Below are positions 22,431-22,745 of a stretch of DNA of 64,000 nucleotides, in pieces; within the stretch, counting starts at the first letter, position 1; every line of letters starts with the position of its first letter. The notes below the pieces were generated by a model. The model was given only the letters and a program-made list of their open reading frames with translations, did not search any database and was not told where the DNA came from. A program made the translations under genes and the position numbers. Source of the DNA: the human T2T-CHM13v2.0 reference genome, Homo sapiens; assembly GCF_009914755.1 (NCBI RefSeq), contig NC_060947.1; one strand, 5' to 3'.

Positions 22431-22745
22431 TTAATTTATGTATACTAAATAACCATTTAAAAATGTATATATTAAAACCTATGTCAAACAAACAACTTAC
22501 ATGAGTATGTATAAACTGATTTTAAAACAAAATGAACTTTGTTACCCTTCTTATTCTCTGTAGCATTTCTTGGGGCTTAGAGTGGCTTAATTTGTCTATA
22601 CTAAATAAACATTTAAAAATGTGTATATTAAAACCTAGGTCAAATTTTTAACAACTTTCATGAATATGTATAAACTGATTTTAAAATAAAATTAACATTG
22701 TCGCCCTTCTTATTCTCTGTAGCATTTCTTGAGACTTAAAGTGGC
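22431..22745 (+). repeat. Diverged tandem duplication (units 22431-22586 and 22587-22745) containing the exon 2 acceptor
   Basis: Both units run ttaattt..tatactaaataa.catttaaaaatgt.tatattaaaaccta.gtcaaa ... cccttcttattctctgtagcatttcttg.g.ctta.agtggc. Confidence 0.95.

What the first reader, a model, noticed from the sequence alone, without database searches (positions are those of the whole stretch)
22431..22745. Tandem duplication gives PHF6's first coding exon two near-identical 3' splice sites
Seen: two ~156-159-bp units, each ending cccttcttattctctgtAG|catttcttg. The downstream AG (22721-22722) is the standard acceptor; the twin is at 22562-22563. Using the twin adds 159 nt of 5'UTR with two uORFs (22619-22651 MCILKPRSNF*; 22660-22689 MNMYKLILK*). 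A branch-point-like TTAAC (22692-22696) reads TGAAC in the upstream copy. Inference: either a decoy silenced by branch-point change or a splice switch that lowers translation of a dosage-sensitive gene. It could also rescue or modify acceptor mutations and promote unequal crossover or read mis-mapping.
Basis: partly seen in the sequence, partly recalled or inferred. Interest (0 to 1): 0.7.

Follow-up and report, generated by a model that had tools for sequence, protein, structure and literature searches.

The report
Duplicated splice acceptor before PHF6 exon 2
An old 159-base tandem duplication has left a near-perfect spare copy of the splice acceptor of PHF6's first coding exon inside intron 1, and it most likely sits there as a mostly unused relic rather than as a regulatory switch.

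Summary
TRF finds one two-copy tandem repeat at 22431-22745 (period 159, score 484; best of 200 shuffles 62). The copies share 139 of 156 aligned bases. Both carry the same polypyrimidine tract and AG, at 22562-22563 and 22721-22722. The unit occurs nowhere else in the genome.

Its divergence matches that of the window's Alu elements, so the duplication is tens of millions of years old.

The two acceptor cores (-20 to +3) differ at one base, so any silencing lies elsewhere:
- The real acceptor has a good branch site at -27. The twin's best in the usual 19-37 range pairs poorly with U2, though both share a good site at -44.
- The 159 nt after the twin are intron-like (26% GC) and carry GGGG and TAGG.
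- The twin exon would be 343 nt instead of 184.

All three RefSeq transcripts in the hub table use 22723. I found nothing in print on use of the twin, and junction reads and other species could not be examined here.

The uORF account needs correcting. The normal 5'UTR already has a 44-codon uORF from exon 1.

Verdict: a real but probably neutral pseudo-acceptor, of modest interest.

The parts
22431..22586 (+). Copy 1 of the tandem duplication (156 nt), wholly inside intron 1
   Evidence: TRF; the repeat finder; alignment (139 of 156 aligned bases identical to copy 2)
22587..22745 (+). Copy 2 of the tandem duplication (159 nt): the last 136 nt of intron 1 plus the first 23 nt of exon 2
   Evidence: exon start 22723 from the hub's RefSeq table
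22544..22566 (+). Twin acceptor core (-20..+3): polypyrimidine tract, AG at 22562-22563, and the first 3 would-be exon bases
   Evidence: It differs from the real 23-mer only at -20. Pyrimidine fraction of the tract is 0.83 in both.
22703..22725 (+). Annotated acceptor core of exon 2 (-20..+3), with AG at 22721-22722
   Evidence: hub RefSeq table (exon 22723-22906)
22690..22696 (+). Best branch-site candidate of the real acceptor (AATTAAC, branch A at 22695, 27 nt before the G of the AG)
   Evidence: matches yTnAy, 5 of 6 U2 pairs, inside the 19-37 range and inside the AG-free zone
22531..22537 (+). Homologous position in the twin (AATGAAC), with G at 22534 where the real copy has T at 22693
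   Evidence: The best TnA candidates of the twin within 19-37 nt reach only 3 of 6 U2 pairs.
22514..22520 (+). Shared distal branch-site candidate, twin copy (AACTGAT, A at 22519, -44)
   Evidence: yTnAy, 5 of 6 U2 pairs, inside the twin's 57-nt AG-free zone
22673..22679 (+). Shared distal branch-site candidate, real copy (AACTGAT, A at 22678, -44)
22564..22722 (+). The 159 nt that would be added to the 5'UTR if the twin acceptor were used
   Evidence: GC 0.26, purine 0.47, GGGG at 22572, TAGG at 22636, no purine run of 6 or more, no 5'ss-like site above 6 of 9. AATAAA at 22604 and 22685, ATTAAA at 22627.
22723..22906 (+). Annotated exon 2 (first coding exon; ATG at 22769)
   Evidence: Hub RefSeq table. 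GC 0.40, purine 0.60, three purine runs of 6 or more; donor ATG|GTAAGT scores 8 of 9.
18494..18618 (+). Exon-1 part of the upstream ORF already present in the normal 5'UTR (ATG at 18494)
   Evidence: 44 codons in the normal mRNA, 70 codons in the twin form
22723..22732 (+). Exon-2 end of the normal uORF. The TGA at 22730-22732 is the only stop between the exon-1 ATG and the PHF6 ATG, which are in the same frame.
   Evidence: The twin copy reads TGG at the homologous 22571-22573.
22619..22651 (+). In the twin transcript it is nested in frame in the extended exon-1 uORF, sharing the stop that ends at 22651.
22660..22689 (+).

Best explanation
A segment of about 159 bp spanning the intron 1/exon 2 boundary of PHF6 (136 nt of intron plus 23 nt of 5'UTR) was duplicated head to tail tens of millions of years ago. 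I infer a primate ancestor.

Such a duplication is harmless as long as the spliceosome keeps using the downstream copy, because that copy still abuts the rest of exon 2 and the whole extra unit then stays in the intron. That is what the annotation shows.

The upstream twin keeps an intact polypyrimidine tract and AG, so U2AF could probably bind it. It loses the competition for three reasons:
1. It lacks a good branch site in the usual 19-37 nt range.
2. What follows it is AT-rich, intron-like sequence with silencer-type GGGG and TAGG motifs and no purine-rich enhancer-like runs.
3. Using it would make a 343-nt exon instead of a 184-nt one.

It is therefore a mostly silent pseudo-acceptor, used at most as a rare minor site. 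Because the extra 159 nt would be 5'UTR only, occasional use is tolerated and there has been little pressure to destroy it.

Shown: the duplication, its uniqueness, the signal differences, and the uORF consequences. Inferred: the age, the reasons for silence, and the low usage.
For: - The duplication is real and far above chance.
- It is found only at this locus in the 3.1-Gb assembly, and the window holds no third copy.
- Per-copy divergence is 0.059. This lies within the spread of 36 Alu copies in the same window (median 0.068, quartiles 0.058-0.087; 12 of 36 are lower).
- The identity around the twin acceptor is no more than neutral drift predicts. The chance of a 28-nt identical run somewhere is P=0.41. 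The chance of at most 1 difference in the predefined 23-mer is P=0.24.
- Branch sites: the real acceptor has a 5-of-6 site at -27, while the twin's best within 19-37 nt is 3 of 6. Positional rules are from PMC4315302.
- Context: the extension has GC 0.26 with GGGG and TAGG, against exon GC 0.40, purine 0.60 and three purine runs. Exon length would be 343 against 184 nt.
- The hub's RefSeq table lists no exon starting at 22564 among the 3 transcripts.
- No retrocopy preserves such an exon.
- Precedent: in F7, a 37-bp repeat spans the exon 7/intron 7 boundary and leaves identical donor copies. These are functional but physiologically unused (PMC1557585, passages read).
Against: - No RNA data could be examined, so 'rarely used' rests on annotation and sequence logic only.
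- The twin's acceptor core is as good as the real one.
- It keeps a 5-of-6 branch site at -44 with no intervening AG.
- It is predicted to be, if anything, more accessible in folded RNA: unpaired probability 0.47 against 0.30 for the tract, and 0.51 against 0.23 for the branch region.
- Early duplicated-site experiments cited in PMC1557585 (Lang and Spritz 1983 against Kuhne et al. 1983, neither read) gave conflicting rules. Upstream use cannot be excluded on principle.
- The silencer reading of GGGG and TAGG is recalled knowledge, not a test.
- The age rests on 17 mismatches. A rough Poisson range, my own arithmetic, puts per-copy divergence at 0.03-0.09. The Alu ages used for calibration are recalled.
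Confidence: 0.62

Rival explanations
1. The twin is a genuine minor alternative acceptor whose use is regulated. It would lengthen the 5'UTR from 202 to 361 nt, extend the exon-1 uORF from 44 to 70 codons and add a second small uORF. That would tune down PHF6 translation.
For: - The acceptor core is identical except at -20, and a usable branch site sits at -44 in an AG-free zone.
- The tract is predicted to be accessible.
- The uORF consequences were computed.
- The ATG at 22619 has A at -3.
- The extension also brings AATAAA and ATTAAA hexamers.
Against: - No listed RefSeq transcript uses it (hub table).
- Nothing was found in print.
- The twin shows no conservation signal beyond drift.
- The extension looks like intron.
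- The normal UTR already has a uORF. Moving its stop from 36 to 118 nt before the main ATG could even favour reinitiation, so the direction of any effect is uncertain (inference).
Confidence: 0.2
2. The twin works without being spliced to. It acts either as an intronic decoy that binds U2AF/U2 and modulates the speed or efficiency of intron 1 removal, or as a stand-by acceptor that rescues splicing when the real acceptor is damaged.
For: - The tract and AG are intact.
- In F7 the duplicated donor copies are silent but become active when the authentic site is mutated (PMC1557585).
- Rescue here would leave the coding sequence intact, because the extra 159 nt is all 5'UTR.
Against: - There is no binding or mutation data.
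- No reports of PHF6 intron-1 acceptor (c.-46-n) variants were found.
- There is no evidence of selection on the twin.
- A back-up role cannot be selected for directly (inference).
Confidence: 0.12
3. The repeat is an assembly artefact, a private or polymorphic copy-number variant of this one genome, or part of a dispersed repeat family.
For: Only one assembly was available, and no population or second-assembly comparison could be run.
Against: - The copies differ at 17 positions plus an indel. Neither a collapse or expansion artefact nor a recent event would give that.
- Their divergence equals that of old Alu copies nearby.
- No other copy exists in the genome, though the tool warns that its counts are lower bounds.
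Confidence: 0.03

Closest known systems
F7 intron 7 minisatellite pseudo-donor sites (PMC1557585; passages read)
   Same: A tandem repeat whose unit spans an exon/intron boundary creates extra splice sites identical to the authentic one. Physiologically only the copy next to the true exon is used. The others are competent but silent, and one is activated when the real site is mutated.
   Different: In F7 these are 5' splice sites in a polymorphic 37-bp array of five to nine copies, with experimental proof. Here it is a single extra 3' splice site in a fixed-looking, 11%-diverged 159-bp duplication. Each copy has its own branch region, and there are no experiments.
Engineered duplicated splice sites in globin genes (Lang and Spritz 1983; Kuhne et al. 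1983; known only through their citation in PMC1557585; the EMBO J paper was not held)
   Same: Two copies of one acceptor compete for one donor, which tests scanning against context models.
   Different: Those are artificial, identical and recent constructs. PHF6 is a natural one whose copies have drifted apart, and the annotated choice is the downstream copy.
Intron creation by tandem duplication of an AGGT-containing segment (PMC3265369; passages read)
   Same: A short intragenic tandem duplication supplies duplicate splice signals and leaves the protein unchanged.
   Different: There the duplicate sites define a new intron inside coding sequence. Here an existing intron simply gains a spare acceptor.
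SF3B1-mutant cryptic 3' splice sites (PMC4358997; passages and supplements searched)
   Same: An upstream AG competes with the canonical acceptor, and the branch site decides the outcome.
   Different: That class clusters 10-30 nt upstream and shares the canonical branch region. The twin is 159 nt upstream with its own tract. PHF6 does not occur in the 12 supplementary files held.
uORF-bearing alternative 5'UTRs and uORF stop-loss variants (general knowledge, recalled)
   Same: Alternative leader exons change the number, length and spacing of uORFs ahead of a dosage-sensitive gene.
   Different: No evidence that the longer leader is made. The normal leader already has the main uORF.

Membership tests
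Tandem (head-to-tail) segmental duplication | Two adjacent copies in register with identity far above chance | tested here: met
   score 484 against a best of 62 in 200 shuffles.
Dispersed repeat / transposable element fragment | Further copies elsewhere in the genome | tested here: not met
   Searches find only the two local copies. The tool warns that common words are skipped and counts are lower bounds.
Competent U2-type 3' splice site (the twin) | AG preceded by a polypyrimidine tract | tested here: met
   the 23-mer equals that of the real site except at -20; pyrimidine fraction 0.83.
Competent U2-type 3' splice site (the twin) | Branch site with U at -2 and branch A, 19-37 nt upstream, with no AG between | tested here: inconclusive
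   the best candidate within 19-37 nt has 3 of 6 U2 pairs. A 5-of-6 site lies at -44, inside the AG-free zone. The rule is from PMC4315302. No mapped branchpoints for this intron were found in its held supplements (file 1 not searched).
Used alternative 3' splice site | Transcript or junction evidence for exon start 22564 | not testable with these tools
   No RNA data are available. The hub's RefSeq table lists none among 3 transcripts. Paper searches found none.
SF3B1-mutant cryptic acceptor | Lies 10-30 nt upstream of the canonical acceptor and is listed in mutant tumours | tested here: not met
   The distance is 159 nt. PHF6 is absent from the 12 supplementary files of PMC4358997. The class definition was read.
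Short-range tandem acceptors (NAGNAG and the like) | Two AGs a few nucleotides apart sharing one tract and one branch site | tested here: not met
   They are 159 nt apart with separate tracts. The definition is recalled.
Recursive splice site | An acceptor immediately followed by a donor-like GT sequence | tested here: not met
   The twin AG is followed by CATTTC. No donor-like site above 6 of 9 lies in the extension. The definition is recalled.
Repeat-derived pseudo splice site (F7 type) | Repeat unit spans the exon/intron boundary, and the copy next to the exon is the one used | tested here: met
   The unit covers 136 nt of intron plus 23 nt of exon. The annotation uses 22723.
Repeat-derived pseudo splice site (F7 type) | The silent copy is activated when the authentic site is destroyed | not testable with these tools
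   This needs a minigene or a patient variant. No such variant is in print.
Upstream ORF | ATG with an in-frame stop inside the 5'UTR of the transcript | tested here: met
   in silico only. Translation was not tested.

The most novel reading that the evidence does not exclude
The twin is a live, regulated second acceptor of PHF6 exon 2. When it is chosen, the leader grows by 159 nt and the exon-1 uORF runs on for 70 codons, because the twin reads TGG where the normal exon has its TGA. Extra start codons and AATAAA signals then enter the mRNA. Output of a dosage-sensitive tumour suppressor and intellectual-disability gene would thus be set partly by acceptor choice. The same site could rescue mutations of the normal acceptor without touching the protein.
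Probability: 0.12. Interest if true: 0.55.

Novelty: new member of a known kind. Interest (0 to 1): 0.3.

Why it matters
If the twin is silent, it is a clean natural test case for splice-site choice. Two acceptors have the same core 159 nt apart and one is ignored, which points to branch-site position and exon context as the deciding signals. It mirrors, on the 3' side, the F7 donor repeat.

It also has practical uses:
- Variants at the PHF6 intron-1 acceptor may be milder than expected if the twin takes over, because only 5'UTR would change.
- Junction reads with under 10 nt of overhang cannot tell the two acceptors apart.
- PCR or capture designs for exon 2 should avoid the repeated 156 nt.

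If the twin is used, it would add a translational control layer to a gene mutated in Börjeson-Forssman-Lehmann syndrome and in leukaemia.

Tried and rejected

2. PHF6-specific literature. Five searches gave nothing on the twin, on leader isoforms or on c.-46 acceptor variants. Four papers were checked by passages (PMC11216013, PMC5448144, PMC7871539, PMC10040387) and were irrelevant. PMC7871539 reports only a PHF6 retained-intron event.

3. A search for the acceptor string itself in papers found 0.

4. 'Decoy acceptor' and duplicated-acceptor phrase searches gave nothing useful. One search gave the F7 and intron-gain papers.

5. Mapped branchpoints.
   - I placed the locus on hg19 from one supplement row of PMC4315302 (c.139-8 at chrX:133512027), assuming the two assemblies are collinear over about 700 bp.
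   - I then searched coordinate prefixes. PMC4315302 has no chrX entry (file 1 not searched).
   - PMC5378181 was searched only in small part, with 16 of 27 files beyond reach.
   - PMC9636908 has none in 4 files.
   - These blanks do not show that no branchpoint exists.

6. Processed pseudogene as a fossil of the long leader: none, because no PHF6 exon 2 retrocopy was found.

7. Selection on the twin. The 28-nt identical run looked striking but is expected by chance (P=0.41).

8. RNA structure hiding the twin: rejected, since the twin is predicted to be more open.

9. Poison exon using the twin plus an internal donor: rejected, as there is no good donor.

10. Recursive splicing: rejected.

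11. Rfam scan of 18000-24000: 0 families.

12. No MaxEnt-type splice scores could be computed because no model was on hand. The near-identity of the 23-mers makes this moot.

13. Kuhne et al. 1983 was not held.

Full report
**The observation**

The stretch 22200-23000 shows the same 28-nt string, polypyrimidine tract plus AG plus nine exon bases, twice. The AGs are at 22562-22563 and 22721-22722, and the second is the annotated acceptor of exon 2 (exon start 22723, hub table).

- TRF reports a two-copy repeat at 22431-22745: period 159, 87% matches, score 484.
- The repeat finder gives two in-register blocks, 96 nt at 90% and 58 nt at 91%.
- A global alignment sets copy 1 at 22431-22586 and copy 2 at 22587-22745. 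It has 139 matches, 17 mismatches (10 transitions, 7 transversions) and one 3-nt indel, with a K2P distance of 0.119.
- In 200 dinucleotide-preserving shuffles of the surrounding 2 kb, 2 gave any repeat of period 20 or more, with a best score of 62.
- It is the only large-period tandem repeat in the 64-kb window. The other two TRF rows at score 100 or above are AC and TTTC microsatellites.

The duplicated segment is 136 nt of intron 1 plus the first 23 nt of exon 2.

**Origin and age**

Neither unit has another copy in the window; the next best blastn hits have E=0.003 and are AT-rich noise. Neither has another copy in the 3.1-Gb assembly: the 315-nt query finds only itself, and a 701-nt query over 21900-22600 finds itself and copy 2. 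The tool warns that its counts are lower bounds. The repeat is therefore a local duplication and not a transposon fragment.

With no other species available, I used the window's own Alu elements as a clock. For 36 copies of at least 250 aligned nt, non-CpG K2P distance to their majority consensus has a median of 0.068 and quartiles of 0.058-0.087. The duplication's per-copy distance (0.119/2 = 0.059) is larger than that of 12 of the 36.

So the duplication is about as old as the bulk of the local Alus. By recalled Alu subfamily ages, that means some tens of millions of years. The estimate is loose for three reasons. It rests on 17 mismatches. Part of copy 2 is constrained as a working splice site. 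Gene conversion would make the duplication look younger.

**No sign of selection on the twin**

The 28-nt identical run around the acceptors is what 18 differences scattered over 157 columns give by chance (P=0.41; mean longest run 27). At most one difference in the predefined -20..+3 23-mer has P=0.24. Mismatches are 13 of 113 columns upstream, 1 of 23 in the core and 3 of 20 in the exon part. The twin's good state needs no selective explanation.

**Why the downstream copy wins (inference from signals)**

The two acceptor cores differ only at -20 and have equal pyrimidine content. Any score based on that 23-mer would be nearly the same for both. The differences lie elsewhere.

1. Branch site.
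   - Mercer et al. 2015 (PMC4315302; passages read) state that 90% of branchpoints lie 19-37 nt upstream (median 25). They also state that the -2 U is the most conserved motif position, followed by the branch A.
   - The real acceptor has AATTAAC with its A at -27 and 5 of 6 possible U2 pairs.
   - The twin has G at the -2 position of the homologous motif, and its best candidates within 19-37 nt reach 3 of 6.
However, both copies keep AACTGAT at -44 (5 of 6) inside their AG-free zones of 57 and 83 nt, so the twin is weakened and not dead.
2. Exon context.
   - The 159 nt after the twin have GC 0.26, close to the 0.29 of the last kilobase of intron before the twin AG. They have purine 0.47, a GGGG at 22572 and a TAGG at 22636, and no purine run of 6 or more.
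   - The real exon has GC 0.40, purine 0.60 and three such runs.
   - All three differences in the 23 duplicated exon bases are G in the twin against A in the real exon.
   - Reading GGGG and TAGG as silencers and purine runs as enhancers is recalled knowledge.
3. Exon length would be 343 against 184 nt.

Predicted RNA structure does not hide the twin. Its tract and branch region are predicted to be more open (0.47 against 0.30, and 0.51 against 0.23). There is no good donor inside the extension (best 6 of 9 against 8 of 9 for the real donors). The twin AG is followed by CATTTC. A poison exon and recursive splicing are therefore both out.

**Evidence on use**

- The hub's RefSeq table shows no exon start at 22564 in any of the 3 transcripts.
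- No processed pseudogene of exon 2 exists that could preserve a long leader.
- Five PHF6-directed full-text searches and a search for the acceptor string found nothing.
- PHF6 does not occur in the 12 held supplementary files of the SF3B1 study PMC4358997. That study places its main class of cryptic acceptors 10-30 nt upstream, so the twin at 159 nt is not of that class.
- I found no mapped branchpoints for this intron in the held supplements of three branchpoint papers. Those searches were incomplete, so the blank means little.
- Actual junction usage therefore remains untested.

**Consequences if the twin were used**

- The leader would grow from 202 to 361 nt.
- The normal leader already has an ATG at 18494 in exon 1 that opens a 44-codon uORF ending at the TGA at 22730-22732. 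In the twin form the homologous codon is TGG.
- The effect on translation is thus a change of degree. Its direction is not obvious, because the distance from the uORF stop to the main ATG also grows from 36 to 118 nt.

**Comparison with known cases**

The closest documented relative is the F7 intron 7 minisatellite. Its 37-bp unit spans the exon 7 donor, its extra identical donors are competent but unused, and one is activated when the real donor is mutated (PMC1557585). That paper also recounts conflicting early results with engineered duplicated donors and acceptors. PMC3265369 shows that tandem duplication can supply working duplicate splice signals. The PHF6 case is a 3'-side, diverged, two-copy member of this kind. 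I found no description of it in print within the searches named above.

**Side claims**

At 89% identity with a longest identical run of 28 nt, ordinary reads map uniquely. Only spliced reads with under 10 nt past the acceptor are ambiguous. Homologous unequal exchange between such short, diverged copies should be rare (recalled knowledge).

**Verdict**

The structure is real and probably primate-age. The most likely reading (0.62) is a neutral relic whose upstream acceptor is largely ignored. A regulated alternative acceptor (0.20) or a decoy or stand-by role (0.12) cannot be excluded without RNA data. Interest is modest.

Noticed in passing
window 18494-18618 and 22723-22771: The exon-1 ATG at 18494 is in the same frame as the PHF6 start at 22769, and the TGA at 22730-22732 is the only stop between them. 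Loss of that one stop, at c.-39 to c.-37 by my count, would fuse the uORF to PHF6 and add about 57 residues to its N-terminus. The twin copy reads TGG at this spot.
   Followed up: partly
window 22604-22609, 22627-22632, 22685-22690: Copy 2, just upstream of the real acceptor, carries two AATAAA and one ATTAAA hexamer, whereas copy 1 has a single ATTAAA at 22471. They would lie inside the exon if the twin acceptor were used. In AT-rich intron this may be chance.
   Followed up: no
window 513-63025 (for example 513-794, 10633-10932, 26626-26936, 62728-63025): The window is dense in Alu elements. 36 copies have at least 250 aligned nt, in both orientations, with non-CpG divergence from their consensus of 0.02 to 0.26. 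Upstream of PHF6 (500-14100) they follow each other roughly every 1.1-1.2 kb, mostly on the minus strand.
   Followed up: partly
window 44798-44862 and 51214-51276: Two clean microsatellites lie in PHF6 introns: (AC)x32 at 90% matches and (TTTC)x16 at 98% matches. Both are likely to be length-polymorphic.
   Followed up: no
window 22984-23010: An A-rich run of 27 nt lies in intron 2, about 80 nt after the exon 2 donor.
   Followed up: no
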